Below, in pieces: positions 1 through 38,691 of a stretch of DNA of 64,000 bases. A program made the position numbers and the translations under genes. This DNA comes from Alphaproteobacteria bacterium (GTDB taxonomy: Bacteria; Pseudomonadota; Alphaproteobacteria; RF32; CAG-239), in contig JAZRCM010000003.1 of the NCBI GenBank assembly GCA_045659785.1, positions 31,982-95,981 of the forward strand, read 5' to 3'. Numbering within the stretch: position 1 is the stretch's first letter; each line of letters begins with the position of its first letter. Under the pieces are notes generated by a model that was not told where the DNA came from, made no database searches, and saw only the letters and a program-made list of their open reading frames with translations.

Positions 1-1973
1 GAAAAAGCACTTGCTAAAGTTAGGTTATAGCTTCCTTTCCAAATCAGATATGCTATAATTTCACGAACGTTTGTTCTGGCAATGATAACGTTATAGCTTC
101 CTTTCCAAATCAGATATGCTATAATCCTTTGCTAACTCTTTACCATTAACTTTGAGTTATAGCTTCCTTTCCAAATCAGATATGCTATAATGTCAGGAAG
201 CGGAAAGACATACAGAGCTAAGTTATAGCTTCCTTTCCAAATCAGATATGCTATAATATGACAACTTATTTTATAAAAAGATGACTTGTTATAGCTTCCT
301 TTCCAAATCAGATATGCTATAATTTTAAGTCGTGTTAATGGCGTTTCTTTCGCGTTATAGCTTCCTTTCCAAATCAGATATGCTATAATTAAGGAGTCTG
401 CCGAATAACCAATAAGGCAGTTATAGCTTCCTTTCCAAATCAGATATGCTATAATGCTGCTTGTCCGTCAATATCAGCATACCCAGTTATAGCTTCCTTT
501 CCAAATCAGATATGCTATAATAGTTCGGACTTGCTTAAAGGCTCGGCTAAAGTTATAGCTTCCTTTCCAAATCAGATATGCTATAATAAATTCTCGTCTT
601 CAATTTTGACTTCGTTTGTTATAGCTTCCTTTCCAAATCAGATATGCTATAATTATTCGCCAACTGTCCACGATAAACTTAATGTTATAGCTTCCTTTCC
701 AAATCAGATATGCTATAATCATTGAAAACGGAATAACAAATGAAATACTGTTATAGCTTCCTTTCCAAATCAGATATGCTATAATTACCTTTGACCGCCT
801 GTCATTCGTAATAATGTTATAGCTTCCTTTCCAAATCAGATATGCTATAATTATTTGGCTCTTAATGTTTCCGTTTCTTCTGTTATAGCTTCCTTTCCAA
901 ATCAGATATGCTATAATCAAGCAAATGGTGTTGAAGTGCTGTATTACGTTATAGCTTCCTTTCCAAATCAGATATGCTATAATGAAGCCGGAGCGATTGC
1001 GTCATAGATGATTGTTATAGCTTCCTTTCCAAATCAGATATGCTATAATAACCGAAAACAAAACCGTGTATGATTTCAGTTATAGCTTCCTTTCCAAATC
1101 AGATATGCTATAATCTGTTCATTCTTTAACCCTCATATAATCATGTTATAGCTTCCTTTCCAAATCAGATATGCTATAATAAGTGTATTTTTTACTTGGA
1201 CATTTAATTTGTTATAGCTTCCTTTCCAAATCAGATATGCTATAATCTCCTATAAAATTTATGGTTGCCAATAACTGTTATAGCTTCCTTTCCAAATCAG
1301 ATATGCTATAATCAAAGTCATCGTATATATAAAAGAGCTTACGTTATAGCTTCCTTTCCAAATCAGATATGCTATAATACAGTACCGACAAAAGGTGTCT
1401 TCGTATCTGTTATAGCTTCCTTTCCAAATCAGATATGCTATAATACACAACGCACAGACCGCATGCACATATAAGTTATAGCTTCCTTTCCAAATCAGAT
1501 ATGCTATAATGGGAGCAAAAGAAAGGGCGGTAATACCCGAGTTATAGCTTCCTTTCCAAATCAGATATGCTATAATGTGTTCAAAAGTCATCAAATGGAC
1601 GACCACGTTATAGCTTCCTTTCCAAATCAGATATGCTATAATAATCTATCCGCAAAGGCGAGACCGGAACACGTTATAGCTTCCTTTCCAAATCAGATAT
1701 GCTATAATTCACAATGTAATATAACTATATTAATATTAGTTATAGCTTCCTTTCCAAATCAGATATGCTATAATTTCAATTCTTCAACATTCTTATAACC
1801 TACGAGTTATAGCTTCCTTTCCAAATCAGATATGCTATAATAAGTACGGGCAGCTTCTCCAGTTTCCTTGCGTTATAGCTTCCTTTCCAAATCAGATATG
1901 CTATAATTTAATCCGTGAAACGTTGTCATAACATCAAGTTATAGCTTCCTTTCCAAATCAGATATGCTATAAT
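1..1973 (+). CRISPR. CRISPR array with at least 30 identical 36-nt repeats (GTTATAGCTTCCTTTCCAAATCAGATATGCTATAAT), first full repeat at 24..59 and then every 66 nt (30-nt spacers) to the last repeat at 1938..1973. Positions 1..23 look like a partial spacer, so the array continues upstream of the window.
   Basis: Seen directly: exact 66-nt periodicity, identical repeats, unique 30-nt spacers. Each repeat ends in TGcTATAAT, a perfect extended -10 element, which implies + strand transcription from every repeat. I recall the N. meningitidis II-C repeat as GTTGTAGCTCCCTTTCTCATTTCGCAGTGCTACAAT, which is strongly similar. Confidence 0.97.
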
Positions 1974-2030: not shown

Positions 2031-2381
2031 TCACAACAATAAAAGCTGTTTATCACCAATTTTTTCCTCTTTTTTTAGTGTTCCAACCAATATCTCCATA
2101 GAAGCATATTGTTTTTCCGTTACTGTCAATAGTCTAACACTTCCTTCTTTTGGAATCAAGGACTTAAGTCGTTTTGCGTGCTTATCCACAGCATCTTGCC
2201 CCTTACAAATTCGAGAATATACTGATAATTGCAGCATTGTATACCCGTCTTTCACTAGGAAATTCCTAAAGCGACTCGCATTTCGTCTATCTGTTTTTGT
2301 CAGCGTCGGAAGATCAAAAAACACTATTATTCGCATATATCTTTCTCCTCCTACTGCCATTTTATCCACAGCCTCAATCAA
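2031..2381 (-). CDS. cas2: CRISPR-associated endoribonuclease Cas2. The true start may be an internal Met (MAVGG... or MRIIVFFDLP...).
   Basis: ~100-aa protein with an MRIIVFFDLP...L.VYSR Cas2-like N-terminal beta-strand. Overlaps the cas1 stop and is adjacent to the array. Confidence 0.85.
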   Translation of the reverse strand: MIEAVDKMAVGGERYMRIIVFFDLPTLTKTDRRNASRFRNFLVKDGYTMLQLSVYSRICKGQDAVDKHAKRLKSLIPKEGSVRLLTVTEKQYASMEILVGTLKKEEKIGDKQLLLL

Positions 2382-3276
2382 AAAGTGGCATTTTTTTTAG
2401 TATGGGTACTTGCAGATATTTTACATCTTTATTTTTTATCGCTTTGACCATACTTATCGCCATCAGTTCACACGATTTTAAAATATTTATTTCTTCATCA
2501 TTTATTATACAGTTTTGAGTTAACACACTCACTAATTCATTTTTTAAAACAGGAGACAACTCTTTCACATCTTCCAAATTAAGTTTATTAACCTGATAAT
2601 CAACAAAAGCTCGATAAGGCTCCATCATATCGTCAACCAAATTAAACTGATTTAATTTATTAGCATGATGAACTCCGAAACAAGGCAATAATCCGGCTCC
2701 AACTACCGCTCGAGCCATACAACCTCGCATAATTGCGTAACCATAATTCAATGCAGAATTTCGAATATCGAAATCATCATTACGATTAAAATTATCAAAT
2801 AAACTTTTCCAATAAACATTTGCAGCAAAAGCTTCTGAATTTTTAGAATCTCCGGACTGCACCTGTTTAGATATTTCTCGCAATTTTTTTGCATTTACAC
2901 AATTAAACAACTCTAAACACATAGCCTGATTATTAATTTTTGCTTTTACAATTTCTTGCCAAATTCTTTTCTTTAATGGCTCTGACATTTCTATCTGATT
3001 CCAAGCAATTTCAGAATATCGAGAATGATTATGAAAAGGAAAAAATGCCCCCGACGGTAAGTGGGAGGCATCTGTTGAAAACATAACTATATTATTATTG
3101 GCAAATTCTGAAATAAGCGAATTATGTAAAGATATTTGTTTATTTTCTAGAATAATAACCGAAATATCTTCTAAAGGAAGTGTCAAACTTTCTCCTTCTA
3201 AGGGTTGATATAAAAGTTGCTTATTCTTTACTGCCAAATGACATGGCTTTGTTATTTGTAAAATTCGCCACCCCAT
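2374..3276 (-). CDS. cas1: CRISPR-associated integrase Cas1 (type II)
   Basis: 300 aa, translationally coupled to cas9 upstream and cas2 downstream. Cas1-like conserved acidic/His residues are present in the C-terminal half. Confidence 0.9.
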   Translation of the reverse strand: MGWRILQITKPCHLAVKNKQLLYQPLEGESLTLPLEDISVIILENKQISLHNSLISEFANNNIVMFSTDASHLPSGAFFPFHNHSRYSEIAWNQIEMSEPLKKRIWQEIVKAKINNQAMCLELFNCVNAKKLREISKQVQSGDSKNSEAFAANVYWKSLFDNFNRNDDFDIRNSALNYGYAIMRGCMARAVVGAGLLPCFGVHHANKLNQFNLVDDMMEPYRAFVDYQVNKLNLEDVKELSPVLKNELVSVLTQNCIINDEEINILKSCELMAISMVKAIKNKDVKYLQVPILKKMPLFD

Positions 3277-3279
3277 ACA

Positions 3280-6200
3280 TTATCCTTTCTGTTGTTTCCT
3301 TTTTGCTCTATCCTCACGACGTTGCCGTTCTGGTTTGATTTTTTGTGAAAATCTTTCTTTTTCTTTATTTATTTTTGTTAAATTTCCAAGTCTATCTATT
3401 GTAAATTTTTGTAATTTTTCAATAACAGATATATTTACTTTCTTTTCCTTATTGATTTTTATATATGGCTTAGTAGTAATATATTTTTTAGTTGTTTTTC
3501 CTTTTTTATCTAATTTTTCTTTAGCCTCAATAACATTGTATTTACCACTACTTGTAATTGAGCGTAAAACACTTTTTTCATTGTCATATTCAACAATCTG
3601 TGCCTCTATTATCTCTTCATCATCAATCTGTACACGAATATAATCTCCTACTTCCAAAGTACTAGTGTTAATTTCATATTCTCTACTACCATTAATACTT
3701 TCTACAAAAATCTGTCCTGTTCCAGAATCATATTGCTTTACATAACCTGTAAATTCTTCTTTCTCCATAGTCAATATCTTAATATAAGACCCTTTGTATA
3801 AACTGAATACAAAATCATCCGCAACAGCCTCCTTTTCAATACCATCTTTTCCAACAGGCTGAATGATATGTTTGAAATTTTTCTTATGCAGATCAATAGC
3901 ATATATAGGTACACAATAATAACCTTCTACCCCATGATATATATCATATCTAAACATTGAATCTAGTTGGACATCTATGGTATTTTGAGCTGCACTTCTC
4001 GTAATAAGTTCATAACCTTTTTTCTTTTTATTAGGTTGTTTGTGAGCTTGCCCAGTTGCGGAACAACGCACCATTTTGGAAACAGTAACTTTTTCAAGAG
4101 ATTCTAAAACTTGTTCTCTAAATCCCACCCAAGGTACTAAATCTTCTTTATTAGAATGTATTCCTTTTTCTTCAAATTGCTTTAACACACTACATATATA
4201 ATAAATATGTCCGAAAGAAGCACATGCTATTACTATAGCATCTTGAGCATGGTGCTTATTATTTTCGTTTCTATTTTTATCAAGCCCCCACATATGACGG
4301 AGTTTAGCGGTTATTCCTCCTCCTAGAACACGTATACGATTAACATCAAGTATAGTATTATTTTGTGATTGTTCAAAACTAAAATATTTACGCAAATATT
4401 CTGCAATATGACGTGTTGCATAACGAGTATTATTCAAATCTCGAGATATAAAATTCTTCATATCTTCTTCGGTAAAACTTTCACGCAATAAATTACGTTT
4501 TTTTGCACTACTCATCTTATTACCACTTAATACTCTTACCTTGAATTTTTGCCATTCTTCCTTTGTTTTAACCTTATCAAAATATTCATATGGGGTACGA
4601 TTTGCCTTTTCTCTATTTGCCAAATTTGAACACAACACCTTATTTTGTAAGCTATCATTAAAAGAGCGACTAATAGGTATAATATGATCAATATCACAGT
4701 CAAATATACTTATTTGATCTGTTGAAGTATTTACACTATTTTCTAAAGATATTCCTTTTCCTGTATATATACACTTAAAATCTTGTTCTTCAGCTAATCT
4801 GAAACGTAGCAAATTATCTCCCTCATCTGGATTAATACTATTTGCTATACACCTTTCTTTTGCAGCATCACGTTGTTCTTTGTAACGTATTTGTCCATTA
4901 TAAATACGAGCGATTTTATCTTTAGAGTTGGCAACATCTGTTGCTAATTCTATATGAATCTCATCTATAACACCATATGTCTTGTTAATAGCATTAACAG
5001 TTTTACGAAATTCTGCAATAATTCGAGATACAGTCGCATTATTCTTAAATGATCCTGTATATGGTTCTATTAAAGTTGTTTTTTCTACTGCTATGTCTCC
5101 ATAACCTAATTCATTTTTAGCATCATTGAATAACATACCATTTGACATTTTGAAATTCAATTCTGATAAAGCTTTACGTGAAAAATGTGTAACTTCCTTC
5201 ATATTTAATTCAAGAATTTTATTAATGATTTCTTCATTATCAATTCCTTTATCTTTCAAATATGAGACACGCATTTCATCTGTTTGATAATATACAAGAG
5301 CTTCTGCTATATCATTTAGCTTGTCTTTAATATCATTAAAAAAGCTTCCTAGGCCTTTTTTTAACATATGGTAACCAGAAAACTCAACAAATATTTCTTT
5401 TTCAAACTGAGCAAGATACTTATCAATTCCTATCTCTGCTTCTGATAAACAGTAGTCCTTCTTAATTATTTCAAAACGGCTATTTTCAGAAATTGATAAT
5501 TGTTTACGTACATCAGAAAAATAATATTTAATTTTTTTTGCATTTACATACTTGTTAAAATATTCATTTGCTTTTGCCTTTAGCTCTTCCCAGCAACTAT
5601 ATTGATATTCACCAGTATTCGTATCGTACAAATTTAATTTTTCATCATTAAATTCTTCCAACTTATCTTTTTCTATTGTAATACTTTTTTCATATTCAGG
5701 ATTAAATTCTCGATATGAACATAAATTAAATCTTTGGCAAACATCTAATTTAAGTAACTGTCGCAAATCGCTAAAAGAAACTTTAACTTTCTTGTTAAGA
5801 GCAAAATCTAATATTTTTTTACGCTCATCATCTTTTAAATCTTCCCTATTTTTTATCTTCAAATTATTTACGCGATTATAAAACGTGAATAGTTCCGCTT
5901 CATAACCATGTTTAGGAAAACGCAGTTCTCCGCGTAGTAACTCGCACTCTCCTATCATTTTTTTGATATTGGTATCATTCAATGGATGAGTGTACATTAA
6001 AACTTCTTTAATATAACGTTCTTCAAACTCTTTAGATAAAATAGTATTACCCTGTCCTCTCTGGAACTCAAAAATCTTATTCACTTCATCTATCAATTCC
6101 GTTCTATATAATGAAATGCCATAATCATCCTTATGATTATGTTTTTTACCTTCTTTGTTAAAAATATACTCCCCTATCGTAGTGCAACCACTCTCTTTAA

Positions 6201-6783
6201 ACTCATTTCTAATAGTTGCAATTCCAAATTTTACTTTTTTATCTTCAGAAGTTTTGTTTTCTTTGGACGGTTCTAATATTTCTTTTTCCTCTGCTTTTGT
6301 TGGAAAATAAAAACCTCTATGATTGGCAATATGATATAATATTCTAAATATTTCTTTTTTTTGCAACTTTTCATATATTGATCGTTTTCTTAATCTCCAT
6401 ATATCCCAATCTTTATCTTTCCAACATGTTGCTTTTTTAGTAGTATTTTGTTCTTTTGGTGCAGAAAATACTTCATTAAAATTAAAATCTTTTGAAATGA
6501 TACCATATTCTTTGGCTAATTTAATAAGGTATCTAAGACGTTCAGCTTTTCGCTCAATAGTCGCTCTTGTTCTGCGCTTCTCTCCTCTATCTGCTAATAA
6601 ACTCTTTCCTGATCTGTCAACAGGTTCATCAAAAACTCTTACTCCACTAGCAACAATCTTTCCATTTTTAATTCGGTACTTAGCCTCATTTTCTTTACCA
6701 TCTAGTAGTTCTTCATCCAAATCAACTACAGCCCAACCGAGTGAGCCTATACCTAAATCTAATCCAAGTACTCTCTTTTTCAT
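3280..6783 (-). CDS. cas9: Cas9 endonuclease, type II-C. Probably ~1167 aa, starting at MKKRVLGLDLGIGSLGWAVV; the ORF track extends 18 codons further upstream.
   Basis: RuvC-I motif (LGLDLGIGSLGWAV) at the N-terminus, an arginine-rich bridge helix (RGEKRRTRATIERKAERLRYL), an HNH motif (DIDHIIPISRSFNDSLQNKVLCSNLANREK) and RuvC-III (HHAQDAIVIA). Followed directly by cas1-cas2 with no csn2 or cas4. Confidence 0.97.
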   Translation of the reverse strand: MKKRVLGLDLGIGSLGWAVVDLDEELLDGKENEAKYRIKNGKIVASGVRVFDEPVDRSGKSLLADRGEKRRTRATIERKAERLRYLIKLAKEYGIISKDFNFNEVFSAPKEQNTTKKATCWKDKDWDIWRLRKRSIYEKLQKKEIFRILYHIANHRGFYFPTKAEEKEILEPSKENKTSEDKKVKFGIATIRNEFKESGCTTIGEYIFNKEGKKHNHKDDYGISLYRTELIDEVNKIFEFQRGQGNTILSKEFEERYIKEVLMYTHPLNDTNIKKMIGECELLRGELRFPKHGYEAELFTFYNRVNNLKIKNREDLKDDERKKILDFALNKKVKVSFSDLRQLLKLDVCQRFNLCSYREFNPEYEKSITIEKDKLEEFNDEKLNLYDTNTGEYQYSCWEELKAKANEYFNKYVNAKKIKYYFSDVRKQLSISENSRFEIIKKDYCLSEAEIGIDKYLAQFEKEIFVEFSGYHMLKKGLGSFFNDIKDKLNDIAEALVYYQTDEMRVSYLKDKGIDNEEIINKILELNMKEVTHFSRKALSELNFKMSNGMLFNDAKNELGYGDIAVEKTTLIEPYTGSFKNNATVSRIIAEFRKTVNAINKTYGVIDEIHIELATDVANSKDKIARIYNGQIRYKEQRDAAKERCIANSINPDEGDNLLRFRLAEEQDFKCIYTGKGISLENSVNTSTDQISIFDCDIDHIIPISRSFNDSLQNKVLCSNLANREKANRTPYEYFDKVKTKEEWQKFKVRVLSGNKMSSAKKRNLLRESFTEEDMKNFISRDLNNTRYATRHIAEYLRKYFSFEQSQNNTILDVNRIRVLGGGITAKLRHMWGLDKNRNENNKHHAQDAIVIACASFGHIYYICSVLKQFEEKGIHSNKEDLVPWVGFREQVLESLEKVTVSKMVRCSATGQAHKQPNKKKKGYELITRSAAQNTIDVQLDSMFRYDIYHGVEGYYCVPIYAIDLHKKNFKHIIQPVGKDGIEKEAVADDFVFSLYKGSYIKILTMEKEEFTGYVKQYDSGTGQIFVESINGSREYEINTSTLEVGDYIRVQIDDEEIIEAQIVEYDNEKSVLRSITSSGKYNVIEAKEKLDKKGKTTKKYITTKPYIKINKEKKVNISVIEKLQKFTIDRLGNLTKINKEKERFSQKIKPERQRREDRAKRKQQKG

Positions 6784-6849
6784 TTTTAACACCCATATAA
6801 AAATTATCTTGACTACAACTTTAGCATTTGCTATCAATAAAGCAAGATA

Positions 6850-6974
6850 TTTTTAATTGTATTGTCTGATTTGGAAAGGAAGCATTATAACAATTGAAAA
6901 TTTCTTATCGAAATTTTTCGAGTGGGGCCCTGGCGATAGTCAACTTGTTTGATGTGTAGCCATCCCCTTTTTTG
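6850..6974 (+). ncRNA. tracrRNA candidate, divergent from cas9. Anti-repeat at ~6861..6891 (ATTGTCTGATTTGGAAAGGAAGCATTATAAC), then a small hairpin and a 3' G/C-rich hairpin ending in a T6 run at 6968..6973.
   Basis: 19 contiguous nt (TCTGATTTGGAAAGGAAGC) plus flanking partial matches are complementary to the CRISPR repeat, with a bulge. Orientation is compatible with + strand crRNAs. A possible promoter sits upstream (TTGACT 6809..6814, then a TGcTATCAAT-like -10). Confidence 0.75.
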
Positions 6975-10364: not shown

Positions 10365-11270
10365 TTAGCAAACAACGTCAACCAACACGCGAGGTGGCTG
10401 GAAAGTTGTCATCGACACCTTCTTAGGCTCTCCGGAGTATCCGGGGAAGAACACAGTACCACAACCGCGGAAGTAACCCAACACCTTGTAAGATGCCAGC
10501 TTACCGTCCCAACCCCAGAATACCTGGTAGTTGCAACCATACACGTCATTCTCGTTTGTGATGTTGATCATCGGAGTTGTAAGAAACTCGAGACCACCCC
10601 ACAAAACGCCGTAGACGTTACTGTCGGAGTAAACCCACTGGCTAACTGCGTCAGCCTTAGGCTTATAGACGTCGAAGTCAAATTGAGATTCTACAAACTC
10701 ATACTTCTCCTCAAGAGCAGCTGCGGAAATACCGTAGAACTCACCCTTAAGGATGTTCTGAGCTGCGAAGAAACCCTCTTCTAGAACAACTTCGTGTTCT
10801 ACAAAGCCGTCAATTACTGACTGCAACTTCTCGCCCGGCTTCACGTTTTTCCAAACGCGAATGCTCTCCTGCTTTACAGCTGTGAAGATACCGTGCTTAC
10901 GAGCCATCTTGAGACCATGCTCCTTATAAGATACGAAGTGGTAGTCCACTCCAATCTCATTGTAAAGCACCTCCGGCATAGCCACGAAGTCTCCATTGAG
11001 ACGGCAAATGGCCTCTGTCTTCTTGTCCTCCTTAGAAGCGATAACCTCCTGAGGGAAGTCTTCGCCTTTGAGAAGAGCCTGATAATGAGCCTTGCTCACT
11101 ACCGAGATAAAGTTACCCTTGCAAGAAGCAATCTCTGCTGCATTGATGCGATTGAAAACGTTGTTAGAACCATCACGAAAAATCTTGTTCATTTCCATAA
11201 TTAAAAAAGAAATTAAAATTAACCCCATAAGCTTCATCCGGGAAAATAAAGAATCAACGTAAGCGAGCAT
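10365..11270 (-). CDS. Secreted hypothetical protein with anomalously high G+C. Likely start at MKLMGLILISFLIMEM (~11237).
   Basis: N-terminal signal peptide. The gene has visibly higher G+C and GC-rich third codon positions compared with its neighbours, and carries its own terminator. Confidence 0.6.
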   Translation of the reverse strand: MLAYVDSLFSRMKLMGLILISFLIMEMNKIFRDGSNNVFNRINAAEIASCKGNFISVVSKAHYQALLKGEDFPQEVIASKEDKKTEAICRLNGDFVAMPEVLYNEIGVDYHFVSYKEHGLKMARKHGIFTAVKQESIRVWKNVKPGEKLQSVIDGFVEHEVVLEEGFFAAQNILKGEFYGISAAALEEKYEFVESQFDFDVYKPKADAVSQWVYSDSNVYGVLWGGLEFLTTPMINITNENDVYGCNYQVFWGWDGKLASYKVLGYFRGCGTVFFPGYSGEPKKVSMTTFQPPRVLVDVVC

Positions 11271-11505
11271 CGAAAAATTTTCAACGCCGTTGAAGTTTTG
11301 TTTCTACATATTCCCACATATCACTTGAAAGATTAAAATCCTTATCAATATGAAATGAACCTATATAATTGACATATACGTAAACTAGAATAATACAAAA
11401 CTAAGTTTAGTATATCACGTTCAACTCATTTTTCAACAAAATTTTGACAAAATTGTTATATTTTTTTTTACTTTTATATGTTACTCCATATAACAAGAGG
11501 GAAAA

Positions 11506-12441
11506 ATGAAATCTGCAAAAAACAAAACTATTGATATAAGCTTAACCGACGGACAAGAATATTTGGAACGTTGCATTTCCGTCAATCGCAAAACGGAAGT
11601 GAAAAATATACTCAACAAAACCATAATTGGTGATTCGCTGAAAGTTATGGAAAAGCTTCCTCGCTCATTTGTAGATTTGTTGATTGTAGATCCGCCTTAT
11701 AATTTGAACAAAAATTATCACGGTAATAAATTTAACCAAACAAACAACGAAGAATATGAACAATACACCACCGCATGGATAGAAAAAGTCTTACCGTTGT
11801 TAAAACCCAATGCCTCGATTTATGTATGTTGTGATTGGAAATCAAGTTTGGTTATCGGTCCGGTTTTGGAAAAATATTTTCAAATTCAAAATCGCATAAC
11901 CTGGCAAAGAGAAAAAGGACGAGGTGCAAATCATAACTGGAAAAACGGTATGGAAGATATATGGTTTGCCACCATGAACAATGATTATACCTTTAATCTT
12001 GATGACGTAAAAATTCGCAGACGAGTTTTAGCACCATATAAAGAAAACGGTAAACCTAAAGATTGGGAACAAACCGAAAACGGACGTTTTCGTAACACTT
12101 GCCCTTCTAACTTTTGGGATGACATTTCTATTCCCTACTGGTCAATGCCCGAAAATACTGCTCACCCGACACAAAAACCGGAAAAACTCATCGCTAAACT
12201 GATATTGGCAAGCTCTAATAAAGATGATGTAGTTTTTGACCCGTTTTTAGGCTCCGGAACAACATCGGTTACAGCGAAAAAACTGGGAAGAAAATATATC
12301 GGTATCGAACAAAATCCCAATTATTGCATTTGGGCCGAAAAACGTCTTGAACTGGCTGAAACCAATTCACAAATACAAGGATATTCCGATGGAATTTTTT
12401 GGGAAAGAAACGCTCAACCAAATAAAAAAGCTCCGAATTAA
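11506..12441 (+). CDS. Beta-class DNA N6-adenine (or N4-cytosine) methyltransferase, CcrM/M.HinfI-like, orphan
   Basis: Motif IV DPPYNL is followed by motif I FDPFLGSGTT, and AHPTQKPEKLI ... GRKYIGIE closely resembles Caulobacter CcrM as I recall it. No adjacent endonuclease gene. Confidence 0.8.
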   Translation: MKSAKNKTIDISLTDGQEYLERCISVNRKTEVKNILNKTIIGDSLKVMEKLPRSFVDLLIVDPPYNLNKNYHGNKFNQTNNEEYEQYTTAWIEKVLPLLKPNASIYVCCDWKSSLVIGPVLEKYFQIQNRITWQREKGRGANHNWKNGMEDIWFATMNNDYTFNLDDVKIRRRVLAPYKENGKPKDWEQTENGRFRNTCPSNFWDDISIPYWSMPENTAHPTQKPEKLIAKLILASSNKDDVVFDPFLGSGTTSVTAKKLGRKYIGIEQNPNYCIWAEKRLELAETNSQIQGYSDGIFWERNAQPNKKAPN

Positions 12442-33132: not shown

Positions 33133-36100
33133 CTACCACGGATCATCATATTTAAGCTTCGGATCGTTCAGACGATTGAGATATTCTGTACCGTTACCTC
33201 TGTCACCTTTTTCATATGAATTTATAGATCCTGCCCCAAATGCTTCAAGTTGGTTATAATCCTTATCAACTTCTGCAGCTGTATAATTTTCATCACTCCT
33301 GTCAAAATAGCAATATACAGTAGCATAACCTTCTATTTGTCTATAATATACAGGGAACAAATTCCACCATACATTCTGCGACCCGGCACCTCCGCCCATA
33401 TATTCAGCATAATAACTTTCGGGATATATAAAGCCCATTACAGCACCCCAGCCCCAAAAGTATGGATTTGTTTCATCTCCATCTTCCTTAAATTTACAAC
33501 CGGTTCCTCCTTCTGAGCCGTAACACGGCAATACCATCGAGCGTAACCATGTACTCTTTTGAAATGTAAGCGGGGTAATATCGGAGAAAGATTTCTCTCC
33601 GGCTATAATTTTTTCAACGGTATCTAAATATTCATTCGGATTTGTTATTTGGTTTACATCAATCGTATTATCCTCTTTCTTATAAGGAAGACCTGCTTGT
33701 GCCATAGCCCAGCCTGACGGAGTTAATGTTGCAACTTTTGCATATAAAGGAGGACATTTCGGGGTTGGAATAAATCCGGCATACTCCGAAACTTCTTGTT
33801 CCATAGAAACTTCCGCACCACCATACGCTAAATCATTACCTTCGGGACTTGGAGCATTTTTTCCATCAGCCCATTCCGTACCTTTTGCATACGAAGTATC
33901 AACCAAATATATACCCTTATTGATAAAGTCAGGCAAAATGTCGCTCAGACGAGCCCCACCGCGAGTTGTCAATTTAATATCATGCATTACTGAAGTATAT
34001 GCAGGATTAACTTCATAACCATCATATGCGACAGGATCAGTAGCATGATGATTTGCGGATGCAGCAACCTCAAGTTTCTCTGTAAAATTCAAACCTTGAG
34101 GTTTATAGTGTGAGATAAATCTATCTGCAGCTATATAACCGACAGCATCTTTTTTATTTTTATATTGTCCATCAATAGCAGCATTGGTCAAGTTGCGATC
34201 ATACCCTACAGGAATATCTGTACCTGTTGATTTATCATAATTGCTTTCTAAAGCTATAGCCCCCTTCCTTATATACACAGAACCATGGCTTTCAGCATTA
34301 TCCGGAACATATGTCGCATTTTGGTGGCTATCCACTACTAATAACTTATCTTTCTTTTTTATATCCCTAGTTTCATCATCTATTGTAGACCTTATTTCAA
34401 AACGCCCAATATTAGCATAAATTGCAGCATCACGACCATGTCCTTCTTGCTTAGTAATATTGTCACTACTACTGGCTATATGCGAATAATTATAATCATA
34501 TATAGCCATACCACCTGTCATTTTAATACTTGCACCATAATCAGGATACCACGACGTTCCTGCACTGGGACCACTTCCTCCACCAGCAACAGGAAACGCT
34601 TCAAATACCGGCTCTCCGTTTTTCGCTCCAACAATAAAGGCTGTATCTCCTACATACATTCTACCATGAAGTGTTCTACTCCACCAAGCTCTCCAATACT
34701 TATCTGAATTTTTCTTTTCATTTGTAGTATCGATTTGTGTTGAGAAAATATTAAAACTGTCCACAACTTGATCTATTGTATCAAAGTAGCTTCCTCCATT
34801 ATAATCTCGGCGCCTCCAAGCTCTAAACATGACATCATTGATTGATACAGGAGCATCAGTTGCAATATTATTATTTGTACCAGTATATGCGGACAAAAAT
34901 ACACCTTTTAAGCCACCGATTCTGACTGTATTGTCGTCAGGGAAAGCATCTTCATCGACAGTAAAAGATTCTGCTGTCGTCGAATTACCTTTTTCATACG
35001 TCATAAAACCTGTATTACCTGCAGCAATATCAATACCTCTTGCTCCTTCCAAGGCATCTGCGGTACTGATAGAAACACCACCGGGGATAACTCTTCCTGT
35101 ATTGTCAGTAGTTTCTCCATCGGCAATGGTCATCATCGGAATTTCATTTGTACCGACAATAAAGCTACCACCATAATCGTGGGGACCGATTTGTTCACTT
35201 TTTGCCACAATATAGAACTCATTATCATCTGTTGCAGCATTAAACGCTGCCCGGTCAATACCTGCACGTAAAGTTCCTGCATCAACATCATAGGCCTTTA
35301 GTTTGCCGGCGAGCATTGTGTCTTTAACAAAGGCAGAACCATTGATTGAAACCTCATATTTTCCTGTTTTTTCTGTTTCATAACGAGGCGCTCCTCCTTC
35401 CCATACATAAGTACTACGACCTCCTTCATGAGCTGTTGCATTACCTGCCGCATCTTTTTTGATAACGGTGTACCAATCTGTTCCGTCTTTAGTCATATTT
35501 AAGTTTCCGTCACCGGCACGGAAATTAGTCTTGTCTGCATACAGCGATTCTACACCTGCTTGTGCAGGAGTTCCTCCATTTGCAGGAACGGCTGAAGTTC
35601 CAAAACTCATACTACCTGCAGATTTTACGGTTAACTTAGCTTTTCCCGCTCCGGGGTCGCCATAAACCAACTCTGCCCCATCAATTTTTAATGTCGGATC
35701 ATTTGCACGAGTCGTGGTGGTTGTCGTATTTCCGGTATTCGGATCTGTTGTTGATGTACTATTGGTGCCATAATACTTAATACCGTCTTCTTTTACTGTA
35801 AACAGTGAGTTCATGGCTTGTAATGCACCTTCCATATAAGCACCACCGCCTTTAGCAATGTATAATGCTTTATTTAAAGTGTTGCTATATCCTCCCGGAT
35901 CAAGAGTATCTGTCGGAGTATCTCCGGTTCGTTCCGAATTATCGCCATCATCTCCACCAACCATTCTTGATTCATCCGGATGCATAATGATTTGGTTTAC
36001 AAAACGAATATTTCTGGTATCGCCGAGAGTATATCCCATAAATAAATCGGTTTCCATCGTATTTAATTCATCATCTGCGTCAGGTTCGTTTTTACGGTGC

Positions 36101-36816
36101 AAAACATCTTCATTTGCCAAGCCTTGTGAAGAAATCGGCTGAACCGACGATACCACAAAAGTATTATCAGCCAAAGTTACACCATCAAACTCAGAAGTCG
36201 GAACACTCCAAATACCTTGAGCACCCATAGCAACCTGTCCGCCATCTTCCGTAATCACATAACCGCCATTACTACCTATCATACTGGCAATACGAGAAGC
36301 ACGAACATTACCTATTTCATCGGGAATTTTCGGAGTTGCAGTAACAAAACCGGTCAATGTTTGGCTCATTACTTTATCGACACCACCAACATTTTTTATA
36401 TCACTCTCAAGTTTGATAATAACATTATATTCATCATCAAAGAGTTTGGTTTCCCTGGGAGTACCATCGGCATTCAAAAAACCATAAGGCAAATAATCCA
36501 AAAAATGAGAAATACTCAAAGGTCCGACTTGTCCCGTTTCTGCTCCTTTGAAAGTTGCGAAATCAACTTCATTTCCCGCACTATTGGTTATTTTTTCGCC
36601 CTTGGTAATGCGAGCAAAATTGTCCTTCAAATAGCTGTCTATTGCTGTCGACAAGGCTCTCATTTGTGCCGAAGCATTAACATCTTGCAACTCTACGGTT
36701 CGCTCCGACGCCTTTTTGTACAGCACAGGAGTAACCATGGCTATCAAGCCCAACATAGCCATTGCCTCAACCAGCAATGTACCTGTTTCGTTAACTTTTT
36801 TCAGTATCTTTTTCAT
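33133..36816 (-). CDS. Giant (1227 aa) type IV prepilin-like protein: 12-aa leader ending in Gly, then TLLVEAMAMLGLIAMVTPVLY (Glu at +5), then a large Gly/Thr/Asp-rich extracellular region with a Thr tract and a C-terminal Cys-containing aromatic-rich domain
   Basis: N-terminal prepilin peptidase cleavage/methylation motif (G|TLLVE) read directly. No ATPase, platform protein or prepilin peptidase in the window. Confidence 0.7.
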   Translation of the reverse strand: MKKILKKVNETGTLLVEAMAMLGLIAMVTPVLYKKASERTVELQDVNASAQMRALSTAIDSYLKDNFARITKGEKITNSAGNEVDFATFKGAETGQVGPLSISHFLDYLPYGFLNADGTPRETKLFDDEYNVIIKLESDIKNVGGVDKVMSQTLTGFVTATPKIPDEIGNVRASRIASMIGSNGGYVITEDGGQVAMGAQGIWSVPTSEFDGVTLADNTFVVSSVQPISSQGLANEDVLHRKNEPDADDELNTMETDLFMGYTLGDTRNIRFVNQIIMHPDESRMVGGDDGDNSERTGDTPTDTLDPGGYSNTLNKALYIAKGGGAYMEGALQAMNSLFTVKEDGIKYYGTNSTSTTDPNTGNTTTTTTRANDPTLKIDGAELVYGDPGAGKAKLTVKSAGSMSFGTSAVPANGGTPAQAGVESLYADKTNFRAGDGNLNMTKDGTDWYTVIKKDAAGNATAHEGGRSTYVWEGGAPRYETEKTGKYEVSINGSAFVKDTMLAGKLKAYDVDAGTLRAGIDRAAFNAATDDNEFYIVAKSEQIGPHDYGGSFIVGTNEIPMMTIADGETTDNTGRVIPGGVSISTADALEGARGIDIAAGNTGFMTYEKGNSTTAESFTVDEDAFPDDNTVRIGGLKGVFLSAYTGTNNNIATDAPVSINDVMFRAWRRRDYNGGSYFDTIDQVVDSFNIFSTQIDTTNEKKNSDKYWRAWWSRTLHGRMYVGDTAFIVGAKNGEPVFEAFPVAGGGSGPSAGTSWYPDYGASIKMTGGMAIYDYNYSHIASSSDNITKQEGHGRDAAIYANIGRFEIRSTIDDETRDIKKKDKLLVVDSHQNATYVPDNAESHGSVYIRKGAIALESNYDKSTGTDIPVGYDRNLTNAAIDGQYKNKKDAVGYIAADRFISHYKPQGLNFTEKLEVAASANHHATDPVAYDGYEVNPAYTSVMHDIKLTTRGGARLSDILPDFINKGIYLVDTSYAKGTEWADGKNAPSPEGNDLAYGGAEVSMEQEVSEYAGFIPTPKCPPLYAKVATLTPSGWAMAQAGLPYKKEDNTIDVNQITNPNEYLDTVEKIIAGEKSFSDITPLTFQKSTWLRSMVLPCYGSEGGTGCKFKEDGDETNPYFWGWGAVMGFIYPESYYAEYMGGGAGSQNVWWNLFPVYYRQIEGYATVYCYFDRSDENYTAAEVDKDYNQLEAFGAGSINSYEKGDRGNGTEYLNRLNDPKLKYDDPW

Positions 36817-37687: not shown

Positions 37688-37890
37688 GTCTTACCCCAAA
37701 AATATACACTAATCACTATTGTGAGTGTATCATAAATATTTTTCAAATAAAAGCACTGAATGGTTAATATATACTAAAATTCATATATCTGTAACAAAAT
37801 TTTTACATTTTCAAGCCATCCAAAAATAAATATTGTTATGTGAGTAAATATTGGGTAAAATACCCGCATAAAACAATCACGGATGTCAAA

Positions 37891-38691
37891 ATGAACAACA
37901 AAAGCGATATATCGGTCAGCAACTTACTATCAGCAGAAGAGATAACCGCCCTTTTAAGCGGTCATAAAAAAAACGAAACCAATAATATTTTATCCTTTTT
38001 TGCCTCTTCGGAATATAAGCAAAAAGCTGATACCTACGCACAAAAAATCAACAAGAAATTGTTGGAAATATATCGCATTGATGCAAGCATCACTCCGATT
38101 ACTCCCTCTTTGGATAGCAATGATTTTTTTATCGTTTTTTCGATAGAAAATAACGAACAATCAGGAAAGATTTTGCTGTCAAAAACTTTTTGCTCAAACA
38201 TTATCAATCTCGTTTTAGGCGGAAAATCGCAAAACGAAGATATAACCAAAACACCTACCACAATTAAAATTATCGAAAATATTGCTAAAGTATTTTGTGA
38301 AGAAGTAATTTCCGAAAATACAAAAATAACGATATCCGAACCCAAAAACAATATTACAAACATTTGTGCGGAAAATTGTTTTTCATTTACCTTGTCAGAA
38401 GACGGAGTATTTTGCTTTATTTTTCCGGAAATACAAATCAATGAAGATATACATTATGAAGAAAATCAACCTTTTAGCGATGACATACCGCTAAAATTAA
38501 GTGCCGTTGCCAAGCAATCCGAAATAACATTACAAAACCTGTCAACATGGAAAGTCGGAGACTTTTTACCCATAGGTATTGAAAAAAATGCAGAAATATC
38601 TATACTATGTGAAAACAAACCGTTATTTAGAGCCGTTATGGGGCAAAAAAATAATCATATCGCTATCAAAATAACCAAGAAAGAGAAGTAA
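37891..38691 (+). CDS. fliM: Flagellar motor switch protein, FliM-like (short): N-terminal CheY-P binding motif LLSAEEITALL and a C-terminal SpoA (FliN/FliM) domain
   Basis: LSxEEIxALL N-motif, and a C-terminal WKVGDFLPIG...ISILCENKPLFRAVMGQ matching the FliN/SpoA consensus. The ORF track starts 17 codons earlier, at 37840. Confidence 0.55.
   Translation: MNNKSDISVSNLLSAEEITALLSGHKKNETNNILSFFASSEYKQKADTYAQKINKKLLEIYRIDASITPITPSLDSNDFFIVFSIENNEQSGKILLSKTFCSNIINLVLGGKSQNEDITKTPTTIKIIENIAKVFCEEVISENTKITISEPKNNITNICAENCFSFTLSEDGVFCFIFPEIQINEDIHYEENQPFSDDIPLKLSAVAKQSEITLQNLSTWKVGDFLPIGIEKNAEISILCENKPLFRAVMGQKNNHIAIKITKKEK

What the first reader, a model, noticed from the sequence alone, without database searches (positions are those of the whole stretch)
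2031..6837. Complete cas9-cas1-cas2 type II-C operon with a ~1167-aa Cas9 from a low-GC, probably alphaproteobacterial, host
Cas9 has all the catalytic signatures: RuvC-I, an Arg-rich bridge helix, HNH and RuvC-III. cas1 and cas2 are translationally coupled to it. There is no csn2 or cas4, which excludes II-A and II-B. The repeat strongly resembles the Neisseria meningitidis repeat, but the host backbone is alpha-like and AT-rich. That may make it a divergent II-C orthologue with an unknown PAM, of potential tool interest.
Basis: partly seen in the sequence, partly recalled or inferred. Interest (0 to 1): 0.6.

Follow-up and report, generated by a model that had tools for sequence, protein, structure and literature searches.

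The report
Ordinary but intact type II-C CRISPR-Cas9 locus
This is a complete, apparently working Neisseria-style (type II-C) CRISPR-Cas9 immune locus in an uncultured low-GC alphaproteobacterium; its Cas9 belongs to a small uncharacterised branch, but the system is a familiar kind.

Summary
On the minus strand lie cas9 (3280-6783, 1167 aa from the ATG), cas1 (2374-3276) and cas2 (2031-2360). No csn2 or cas4 is present.

A CRISPR array (24-1973, plus strand) has 30 identical 36-nt repeats and runs off the window's left edge. A predicted tracrRNA gene (about 6845-6973, plus strand) lies just upstream of cas9.

All catalytic residues are intact: D9, E612, H700, N723, H845 and D848. The closest solved structures are the II-C enzymes Nme1Cas9, ThermoCas9, GeoCas9 and HpaCas9, at only 21-23% identity.

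The repeat matches the Neisseria-type repeat at 25 of 36 positions. It ends in TGCTATAAT, an extended -10 box, as in the repeat-embedded crRNA promoters of N. meningitidis. Eight related metagenomic loci share the same architecture, with co-varying repeat and anti-repeat.

The host is an Alphaproteobacteria MAG. An exhaustive search found about six full-length cluster representatives (plus a few fragments) above 40% identity, so this Cas9 branch is small and uncharacterised.

The PAM is unknown, because protospacer searches failed. D1019 aligns with Nme1Cas9 H1024, which weakly suggests C at PAM position 5.

Verdict: a new member of a known kind, of modest interest.

The parts
24..1973 (+). 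CRISPR array. It has 30 identical 36-nt repeats (GTTATAGCTTCCTTTCCAAATCAGATATGCTATAAT) and 29 complete unique spacers of 29-31 nt. Bases 1-23 are a partial spacer, so the array continues beyond the window's left edge. It is oriented opposite to the cas genes, and each repeat ends in the extended -10 box TGCTATAAT.
   Evidence: Orientation and promoter logic are by analogy with N. meningitidis (PMC3737331; PMC12477760).
1985..2008 (.). Hairpin between the array and the cas2 stop, with 10 base pairs (AACCTGTTGA-loop-TCAACAGGTT). It has a good T-run on the plus strand, so it could terminate array transcripts before they run antisense into cas2. The T-run on the minus strand is poor.
   Evidence: consensus scan only; function inferred
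2031..2360 (-). cas2, 109 aa from the ATG at 2360. The ORF extends to a TTG at 2381, and an alternative ATG at 2336 has a strong AGGAGG ribosome-binding site.
2374..3276 (-). cas1, 300 aa, type II/NMENI subfamily. Its ATG lies 3 nt after the cas9 stop.
3280..6783 (-). cas9, 1167 aa. Catalytic residues: RuvC-I D9, RuvC-II E612, HNH H700 and N723, RuvC-III H845 and D848. The bridge helix spans about residues 62-92. There is a clade-specific REC insertion at about 358-470 and a PAM-interacting-domain insertion at about 1036-1117. The C-terminal tail is Lys/Arg-rich.
6809..6837 (+). Predicted tracrRNA promoter: -35 TTGACT (6809-6814), a 17-nt spacer, then -10 TATCAA (6832-6837). The -35 TTGAC is identical in the 4 of 5 loci aligned over that stretch. 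It overlaps the 5' extension of the TTG-called cas9 ORF.
6845..6973 (+). Predicted tracrRNA, about 129 nt, transcribed away from cas9. The anti-repeat is at 6856-6891 and pairs with the repeat as 6 bp, a 2-nt bulge, then about 23 more pairs, one interrupted by a single unpaired base (-41 kcal/mol). A nexus-like hairpin follows, then a GGGG...CCCC terminator hairpin and a U-run.
6884..6911 (-). Possible cas9 promoter, lying antisense within the tracrRNA gene: TCGATA, 16 nt, then TG-extended TATAAT. The TGTTATAAT is the anti-repeat read on the other strand.
   Evidence: best-scoring consensus match in the region; conserved in only some relatives; speculative

Best explanation
This is a functional Neisseria-type (type II-C) CRISPR-Cas9 adaptive immune system in the chromosome of an uncultured alphaproteobacterium.

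Shown from sequence:
- an intact cas9-cas1-cas2 operon on the minus strand;
- a convergent 30+-repeat array;
- a tracrRNA gene upstream of cas9, divergent from it, with its own promoter, anti-repeat, two 3' hairpins and a U-run.

Inferred by analogy with N. meningitidis:
- Each repeat ends in an extended -10 box (TGCTATAAT), so each spacer is probably transcribed from the repeat upstream of it.
- Transcription would start about 6 nt into the spacer, giving crRNAs with a guide of about 24 nt followed by the next repeat.
- These crRNAs pair with the tracrRNA anti-repeat and load into Cas9.
- Cas9 cuts PAM-flanked DNA with HNH (H700) and RuvC (D9/E612/H845/D848).
- Cas1-Cas2 add new spacers at the cas-distal end of the array, which lies off-window.

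The PAM is undetermined. D1019 aligns with Nme1Cas9 H1024. In Nme1Cas9 orthologues, Asp at that position goes with C at PAM position 5, so an N4C-type 3' PAM is a weak prediction.
For: **Gene identities and intact full-length ORFs:**

**Catalytic residues:** invariant across 44 homologues.

**Closest relatives are II-C.** By sequence, the best solved structures are ThermoCas9 at 279 bits and Nme1Cas9 at 260 bits. By fold, using an AlphaFold2 model with pLDDT 80.8, the best matches are Nme1Cas9 at TM 0.61-0.71, then ThermoCas9, HpaCas9 and GeoCas9.

**Array looks active.** It has 30 identical repeats and 29 unique spacers, and no spacer matches elsewhere in the window.

**Repeat.** 25/36 identical to the Neisseria-type repeat, including GTTnTAGCT at the 5' end and TGCTAnAAT at the 3' end.

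**Nme precedents.** Repeat-embedded promoters start at the 6th nt of the spacer (PMC12477760). The array is transcribed opposite to the cas operon, and anti-repeats lie upstream of cas9 (PMC3737331).

**tracrRNA.** The promoter, anti-repeat, hairpins and U-run are conserved in 8 loci. The consensus fold has 7 pairs with compensatory changes and several G-U pairs, which only form on the plus strand. The 3' tail folds with z = -2.7.

**Repeat and anti-repeat co-evolve.** Each locus's own duplex is -41 to -45 kcal/mol. The window repeat with the L001, L013 and L014 tracrRNAs gives only -28 to -33 kcal/mol; with the nearly identical L003/L005 tracrRNAs it is unchanged.

**Same architecture** in L001-L006 and L012-L015.

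**Spacer turnover.** L003 and L004 encode the same Cas9, share the cas2-proximal spacers and differ at the cas-distal end, so spacers are gained there.

**PAM-reading position.** D1019 aligns with Nme1 H1024. The D-to-C5 rule is from PMC9433092.
Against: - No expression, processing or cleavage data exist. The host is uncultured and nothing here tests activity.
- No credible protospacer was found for any of the 10 spacers searched individually in the viral or metagenome collections (4 more scans covered whole arrays). Targets and PAM are therefore unknown.
- Rfam has no family hit for the tracrRNA or the repeat, so the RNA parts are predictions.
- The D1019-to-C5 rule comes from orthologues 60-70% identical to Nme1Cas9. 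This protein is about 22% identical.
- The leader end of the array lies outside the window.
Confidence: 0.85

Rival explanations
1. The locus is a relic, or has been repurposed. It would be silent, or Cas9 would act only in gene regulation or with apo-Cas9 functions, and the array would no longer confer immunity.
For: No protospacer was found for any spacer tried. One relative, L014, keeps cas9-cas1-cas2 and the tracrRNA but only a single repeat, so array collapse does occur in this clade.
Against: All three cas ORFs are full length with invariant catalytic residues. The 30 repeats are identical to the base and all spacers are unique. The tracrRNA and its pairing are conserved and co-vary. Sister strains differ by spacers at one end of the array. 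Missing protospacers are expected for an uncultured gut lineage that virus collections sample poorly.
Confidence: 0.06
2. The RNA polarity is the reverse of what is proposed. The array would be transcribed on the minus strand, co-directionally with the cas operon, from a leader. The complementary RNA would be a minus-strand transcript through 6889-6854, for example part of the cas9 5' UTR, with RNase III processing as in type II-A.
For: The minus strand at 6911-6884 carries the best promoter-like match in the region, an extended -10 TGTTATAAT. Duplex complementarity alone cannot tell the two strand pairings apart.
Against: On the plus strand the anti-repeat is preceded by a conserved TTGAC(A/T)-17-TAnnnn promoter. 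It is followed by conserved hairpins and a U-run. Several stem pairs are G-U on the plus strand, which would be C-A mismatches on the other strand. On the plus strand every repeat in the clade ends with a -10 hexamer: TATAAT, TATACT or TACAAT. The Neisseria and Campylobacter precedent is convergent array transcription. A minus-strand tracr-like RNA would have no terminator before cas9.
Confidence: 0.07
3. The subtype or host assignment is wrong. The system would be II-A or II-B with an unrecognised fourth gene, or the locus would sit on a mobile element or a mis-binned contig rather than in an alphaproteobacterial chromosome.
For: GC in the cas genes is 0.30-0.31 against 0.34-0.41 elsewhere. 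Relatives sit in different genomic neighbourhoods, which suggests horizontal movement. One 40%-identical relative is labelled as coming from a 'Bathyarchaeia' MAG.
Against: There is no room for a fourth cas gene. cas2 ends at 2031 and the array ends at 1973; upstream of cas9 come the tracrRNA gene and then an MprF-like gene. No Csn2 or Cas4 hit appears in any library. The same 64-kb contig segment carries lepA, uvrB, secY, rpoA, argS, tolB, kdsB and glycolytic genes. Its UvrB clusters at >=90% identity with Alphaproteobacteria MAG proteins. The only GTDB-representative genome with a relative is also an Alphaproteobacteria MAG.
Confidence: 0.03

Closest known systems
Neisseria meningitidis type II-C CRISPR-Cas9 (Nme1Cas9 system; PDB 6JDQ, 6JE4, 6KC8)
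   Same: - The gene set and order: tracrRNA, cas9, cas1, cas2, then the array.
- The array is convergent with the cas operon.
- 36-nt repeats that are 25/36 identical, with about 30-nt spacers.
- The repeat's 3' end forms an extended -10 box (TGCTATAAT here, TGCTACAAT in Nme).
- The tracrRNA gene lies upstream of cas9.
- It is the best structural match (TM 0.61-0.71).
- The PID core and C-terminal motif are homologous: MFRYDIY..YYCVPIY, FVFSLY and QKFTIDRLGN.
   Different: - Only about 21-22% identity in structural alignment.
- The protein is 85 aa longer.
- It has a REC insertion at about 358-470 and a beta-rich PID insertion at about 1036-1117.
- The PAM-reading H1024 is replaced by D1019, so the PAM is probably not N4GATT.
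- The host is a low-GC alphaproteobacterium, not a betaproteobacterium.
ThermoCas9 / GeoCas9 (Geobacillus type II-C; PDB 9AR4, 9AR6, 8UZA, 8JTJ)
   Same: ThermoCas9 is the best sequence match among solved structures (279 bits). The RuvC, bridge-helix, HNH and RuvC-III motifs align residue for residue.
   Different: About 23% identity. The hosts are Firmicutes thermophiles. The repeat and tracrRNA are unrelated. The PID aligns only in its first half.
Uncharacterised metagenomic clade: P0002 (71%), P0003-P0012 (61-64%), P0015-P0019 (44-53%), P0020-P0025 (about 40%)
   Same: True orthologues, with the same architecture. Repeats are identical or nearly so in L003-L006, and co-vary with the tracrRNA in L001, L013 and L014; the array of the 40%-identity relative L015 carries a clearly different repeat, and arrays were not recovered in the fetched stretches for L002 and L012. 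The REC insertion is shared. All come from MAGs or metagenome contigs, some labelled Alphaproteobacteria or Pseudomonadota.
   Different: None has been studied. The PID insertion is absent from the 40% group and from P0017. The residue at the Nme H1024 position varies (D/N/I/K/V/G/E), which suggests different PAMs.
EHCas9 (metagenomic type II-C Cas9 whose closest homologues are alphaproteobacterial; PMC10281378)
   Same: It is a precedent for a II-C Cas9 with alphaproteobacterial affinities mined from a metagenome and turned into a tool.
   Different: 1070 aa, Gasiunas clade IX, NGG-type PAM. Its sequence is not in the fetched data, so it was not compared directly, and its relationship to this clade is untested.

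Membership tests
Type II CRISPR-Cas (Cas9 effector) | A single large effector with a split RuvC-like nuclease (motifs I, II, III), an inserted HNH nuclease and an Arg-rich bridge helix | tested here: met
   TIGR01865 at 535 bits against a cutoff of 100, plus HNH_4, RuvC_III and Cas9_RuvC. D9, E612, H700, N723, H845 and D848 are invariant, and R66/R78 are invariant with R70/R73/R82 nearly so. The fold matches Cas9 structures.
Type II CRISPR-Cas (Cas9 effector) | A tracrRNA with an anti-repeat complementary to the CRISPR repeat, encoded in the locus | tested here: met
   The anti-repeat at 6856-6891 (plus strand) gives a duplex of -41 kcal/mol. It has its own promoter and terminator, is conserved in 8 loci and co-varies with the repeat. 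Expression was not tested.
Subtype II-C | A minimal cas9-cas1-cas2 operon with no csn2 (II-A) and no cas4 (II-B) | tested here: met
   The ORF map and the Pfam, NCBIfam and PADLOC scans of the operon and its flanks show only cas9, cas1 and cas2. The definition is from PMC3737331. The region beyond the off-window end of the array cannot be seen.
Subtype II-C | The Cas9 groups with II-C Cas9s rather than II-A or II-B | tested here: met
   The top sequence and fold matches are all II-C: Nme1, Thermo, Geo and Hpa. II-A Cas9s (Sau, St1, Spy) score lower. No formal tree with reference clades was built.
Neisseria-type II-C with processing-independent crRNAs | Each repeat carries a promoter (extended -10) at its 3' end, and the array is transcribed opposite to the cas operon | tested here: inconclusive
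   The sequence motif TGCTATAAT is present in all 30 repeats. A -10 hexamer is conserved at the repeat 3' end across the clade, and the orientation is convergent. Transcription starts cannot be measured with these tools.
Active Cas9 nuclease with defined PAM | RNA-guided, PAM-dependent double-strand DNA cleavage | not testable with these tools
   This needs a PAM-depletion or in vitro cleavage assay. The only in-silico route, protospacer flanks, gave no usable protospacer.

The most novel reading that the evidence does not exclude
This small Cas9 subclade would be functionally distinct from every characterised II-C enzyme. It has only about six full-length cluster representatives (plus a few fragments) above 40% identity among 1.84 billion. 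It carries a REC-lobe insertion of about 110 aa and a beta-rich insertion of about 80 aa in the PAM-interacting domain. Distinct function could mean a new PAM, a new guide or target geometry, or escape from known AcrIIC inhibitors. Its highly variable PAM-reading position would make it a natural PAM-diversity panel that shares one repeat/tracrRNA scaffold.
Probability: 0.25. Interest if true: 0.4.

Novelty: new member of a known kind. Interest (0 to 1): 0.25.

Why it matters
It adds an intact, fully specified II-C system from a poorly sampled lineage of uncultured low-GC Alphaproteobacteria. The description here covers the cas genes, the array, the tracrRNA and a predicted sgRNA scaffold.

In practical terms, several Cas9s only 61-71% identical to one another share an almost identical repeat and tracrRNA, yet differ at the position equivalent to the PAM-reading H1024 of Nme1Cas9. 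That pattern yielded PAM-diverse, guide-compatible tool sets among Nme orthologues (PMC9433092). The protein is not compact and nothing about the mechanism looks new, so the value is incremental.

Tried and rejected
**1. Protospacer and PAM hunt.**
- The whole window array searched against 50,697 phage records and 72,556 plasmids gave only chance-level matches, with E >= 0.2.
- The arrays of L005 and L013 against phages gave nothing credible.
- Eight 23-24-nt spacer patterns were scanned in IMG/VR and two in JGI metagenomes. Nine spacers gave no hit.
- Spacer 6 gave hits, but they turned out to be a dispersed motif of about 28 nt with unrelated flanks. I rejected it as a source of PAM information.

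**2. Self-targeting.** No spacer from the window, or from the arrays extracted from related loci (L001, L003-L006), matches the rest of the window or any fetched locus.

**3. Rfam.** Nothing in the window reached any family's gathering threshold, so there is no curated tracrRNA or CRISPR-DR family to lean on.

**4. Literature.** The repeat sequence appears in no searchable paper.

**5. Exact-product lookup.** The NCBI-called 1185-aa product could not be found, so the source record could not be fetched.

**6. cas9 and cas2 starts.** I considered the TTG-extended cas9 start at 6837, as in the NCBI call P0001. I rejected it because homologues start at MKKR and the extension overlaps the tracrRNA promoter. 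For cas2 I considered a TTG start overlapping cas1 and favour the ATG at 2360.

**7. RNAalifold on the lone tracrRNA.** It folds the anti-repeat on itself. I disregard that part, because the anti-repeat pairs with crRNA.
Full report
**What is in the sequence**

- The first is 3280..6837, 1185 aa from a TTG. All homologues begin MKKRVLGLD, so the real start is the ATG at 6783, giving 1167 aa.
- The second is 2374..3276, 300 aa.
- The third is 2031..2381. The N-terminus MAVGGER(Y/F)MR is conserved in four relatives, which puts the probable start at the ATG at 2360, giving 109 aa.

Pfam, NCBIfam and PADLOC identify them as Cas9, type II Cas1 and Cas2. Cas9 hits TIGR01865 at 535 bits, plus HNH_4, RuvC_III and Cas9_RuvC. 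Cas1 hits cas1_NMENI at 289 bits and Cas1_II. Cas2 hits Cas2_II.

The cas9 stop and the cas1 start are 3 nt apart. The cas1 stop and the likely cas2 start are 13 nt apart. This is a tight operon in which translational coupling is plausible but not demonstrated.

*The array.* Downstream of cas2, on the opposite strand, lies a CRISPR array at 24-1973.
- It has 30 base-identical 36-nt repeats: GTTATAGCTTCCTTTCCAAATCAGATATGCTATAAT.
- It has 29 unique spacers of 29-31 nt.
- Bases 1-23 are part of a further spacer, so the array continues off the window.
- A 10-bp hairpin at 1985-2008 separates the array from cas2.

*The tracrRNA gene.* Upstream of cas9, the plus strand carries a sequence complementary to the repeat at 6856-6891.
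- It is preceded by TTGACT-17 nt-TATCAA at 6809-6837.
- It is followed by a nexus-like hairpin, a GGGG...CCCC hairpin and a U-run ending near 6973.
- The predicted RNA is about 129 nt.
- It pairs with the repeat as 6 bp, a 2-nt bulge, then about 23 more pairs, one interrupted by a single unpaired base (-41 kcal/mol).

**Cas9 itself**

In a 44-sequence alignment, D9 (in LGLDLG), E612 (IHIELA), H700 (DIDHIIP), N723, H845 and D848 (HHAQDA) are invariant. The bridge-helix arginines are invariant or nearly so. The ORF has no interruption and aligns over 100% of its length with relatives.

The best solved-structure matches by sequence are ThermoCas9/GeoCas9 at 279 bits and Nme1Cas9 at 260 bits. An AlphaFold2 model (mean pLDDT 80.8) matches these structures best, at 21-23% identity; II-A enzymes rank lower:
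- Nme1Cas9, TM 0.61-0.71
- ThermoCas9
- HpaCas9
- GeoCas9

The protein is about 85 aa longer than Nme1Cas9.
- A mixed alpha/beta insertion in the REC lobe (about 358-470) is shared by all relatives at 40% identity or more.
- A beta-rich insertion in the PAM-interacting domain (about 1036-1117) is present only in the nearer relatives. It is the least conserved segment, at 29-48% identity.

**How isolated it is**

An exhaustive HMMER pass over 1.84 billion cluster representatives found 4597 Cas9 relatives. Only about six full-length representatives (plus a few fragments) are above 40% identity. Below that lies a continuum at 30-39%.

The word-indexed search gave the same picture. One protein is at 71%, about ten at 61-64%, a handful at 44-53%, and six at about 40%. 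All are metagenomic and none is characterised.

**Related loci**

I fetched eight relatives: L001-L006 and L012-L015.
- All have an anti-repeat 49-104 nt upstream of cas9, apart from L015, where my search for this clade's anti-repeat found nothing. All have cas9 followed by cas1, and cas2 wherever the contig reaches that far. Where the contig extends further they have an array in the opposite orientation.
- The repeat is identical or nearly so even where Cas9 is only about 64% identical.
- Where the repeat changes (L001, L013, L014), the anti-repeat changes with it. Each locus's own duplex is -41 to -45 kcal/mol, against -28 to -33 for the window repeat with those tracrRNAs.
- The tracrRNA alignment's consensus fold has 7 pairs with compensatory changes, including G-U pairs that only work on the plus strand.
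- Every repeat in the clade ends in a -10-like hexamer: TATAAT, TATACT or TACAAT.
- L003 and L004 encode the same Cas9, share their cas2-proximal spacers and differ at the cas-distal end. Spacers are therefore gained at the far end, which lies off-window here.

**How it most likely works**

The anatomy matches N. meningitidis point for point.
- The repeat is 25/36 identical to the Neisseria-type repeat GTTGTAGCTCCCTTTCTCATTTCGCAGTGCTACAAT. No shuffle out of 100000 reaches that.
- In Neisseria the repeat's 3' end is an extended -10 promoter. crRNAs start at the 6th nt of each spacer (PMC12477760).
- In Neisseria the array is transcribed opposite to the cas operon, and anti-repeats usually lie upstream of cas9 in II-C (PMC3737331).

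I therefore infer the following sequence of events.
1. Repeat-embedded promoters (TGCTATAAT) drive transcription.
2. The resulting crRNAs have a guide of about 24 nt.
3. They pair with the divergently transcribed tracrRNA.
4. Cas9 cleaves using HNH and RuvC.
5. Cas1-Cas2 integrate new spacers at the distal end.

The gene content, RNA genes, complementarity and conservation are shown. Transcription starts, processing, cleavage and the PAM are inferred.

**PAM**

No usable protospacer was found. The searches are listed under "tried and rejected".

Within the PID, HMMER aligns GYVKQYDSGTGQIFV with Nme1Cas9 GYFASCHRGTGNINI. This places D1019 opposite H1024, T1022 opposite T1027 and Q1024 opposite N1029.

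[quoted passage not shown] That gives a weak, testable prediction of an N4C-type PAM here.

The same column reads N, I, K, V, G or E in relatives. PAMs therefore probably differ within the clade, even though the guide scaffold is shared.

**Host and context**

The window is ordinary chromosome. It carries lepA, ettA, uvrB, argS, secY, rpoA, tolB, kdsB, queA, fabF, gap, pgk, pfk and ldh.

Its UvrB belongs to a >=90%-identity cluster whose named members are 'Alphaproteobacteria bacterium' MAGs. The only GTDB representative genome with a relative is an Alphaproteobacteria MAG.

GC is 0.30-0.31 across cas9 and cas1, against 0.34-0.41 elsewhere. Relatives sit in different neighbourhoods. Together these suggest the locus moves horizontally within this group.

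**Comparison, novelty and verdict**

By gene content, closest relatives, tracrRNA position, array polarity and repeat sequence this is a type II-C, Neisseria-style system. Every defining feature that can be read from sequence is met. Activity and PAM cannot be tested here.

The Cas9 is a new, divergent member of an uncharacterised subclade with two lineage-specific insertions. Nothing points to a new mechanism. Metagenomic II-C Cas9s with alphaproteobacterial affinities have already been developed as tools (PMC10281378).

I rate it a new member of a known kind, interest about 0.25.

Noticed in passing
window 390-419 (spacer 6); L007 5811-5841; L009 2330-2353; L010 2116-2139; L011 322-345: The 3' 24 nt of spacer 6 (GTCTGCCGAATAACCAATAAGGCA, followed by G) occur exactly in an IMG/VR viral contig, 24 nt past the 3' end of an integrase gene. 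They also occur in three further metagenome contigs with GC of 0.41-0.62. Flanks on both sides are unrelated; only about 28 nt (GGnGTCTGCCGAATAACCAATAAGGCAG, a CTGCC/GGCAG hairpin with a 13-nt loop) are shared, and the copies checked (L007, L009, L010) are intergenic. There is no Rfam hit and no match in the phage or plasmid collections. I do not know what this dispersed motif is.
   Followed up: partly
L014 5278-5313 (relative encoding Cas9 P0019): This relative keeps cas9-cas1-cas2 and a matching tracrRNA anti-repeat. Downstream of cas2 it has only one repeat-like unit and no array, followed by unrelated genes. This looks like a collapsed or nascent array.
   Followed up: partly
window 6784-6837: The public gene call for this Cas9 (P0001, 1185 aa) starts at a TTG 18 codons upstream of the conserved MKKR start. 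The extension overlaps the predicted tracrRNA promoter, so the start is probably mis-called.
   Followed up: yes
window 10365-12441: A type II DNA methyltransferase (11506-12441, plus strand; PADLOC MTase_II at 241 bits) sits divergent from a 301-aa ORF (10365-11270, minus strand) that has no family hit. This may be a restriction-modification pair, about 3.5 kb from the CRISPR locus.
   Followed up: no
window 33133-36816 (-): A 1227-aa ORF has no Pfam or NCBIfam hit. Its N-terminus (…NETG|TLLVEAMAMLGLIAMV…) looks like a type IV prepilin cleavage and methylation signal. It lies next to a 284-aa ORF with no hit and a gene with a FliN C-terminal domain (37840-38691).
   Followed up: no
P0020: A 40%-identical Cas9 relative is labelled in NCBI as coming from a 'Candidatus Bathyarchaeia archaeon' MAG. 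A Cas9 in an archaeal bin is more likely a binning error than a real archaeal system.
   Followed up: no
L003, L004, L005, L006, L014 (contig starts): Several metagenome contigs for relatives begin only 230-490 nt upstream of cas9, or end inside the array. The repeat and its anti-repeat copy probably break assemblies there, so the tracrRNA and array will often be missing from short contigs of this clade.
   Followed up: no
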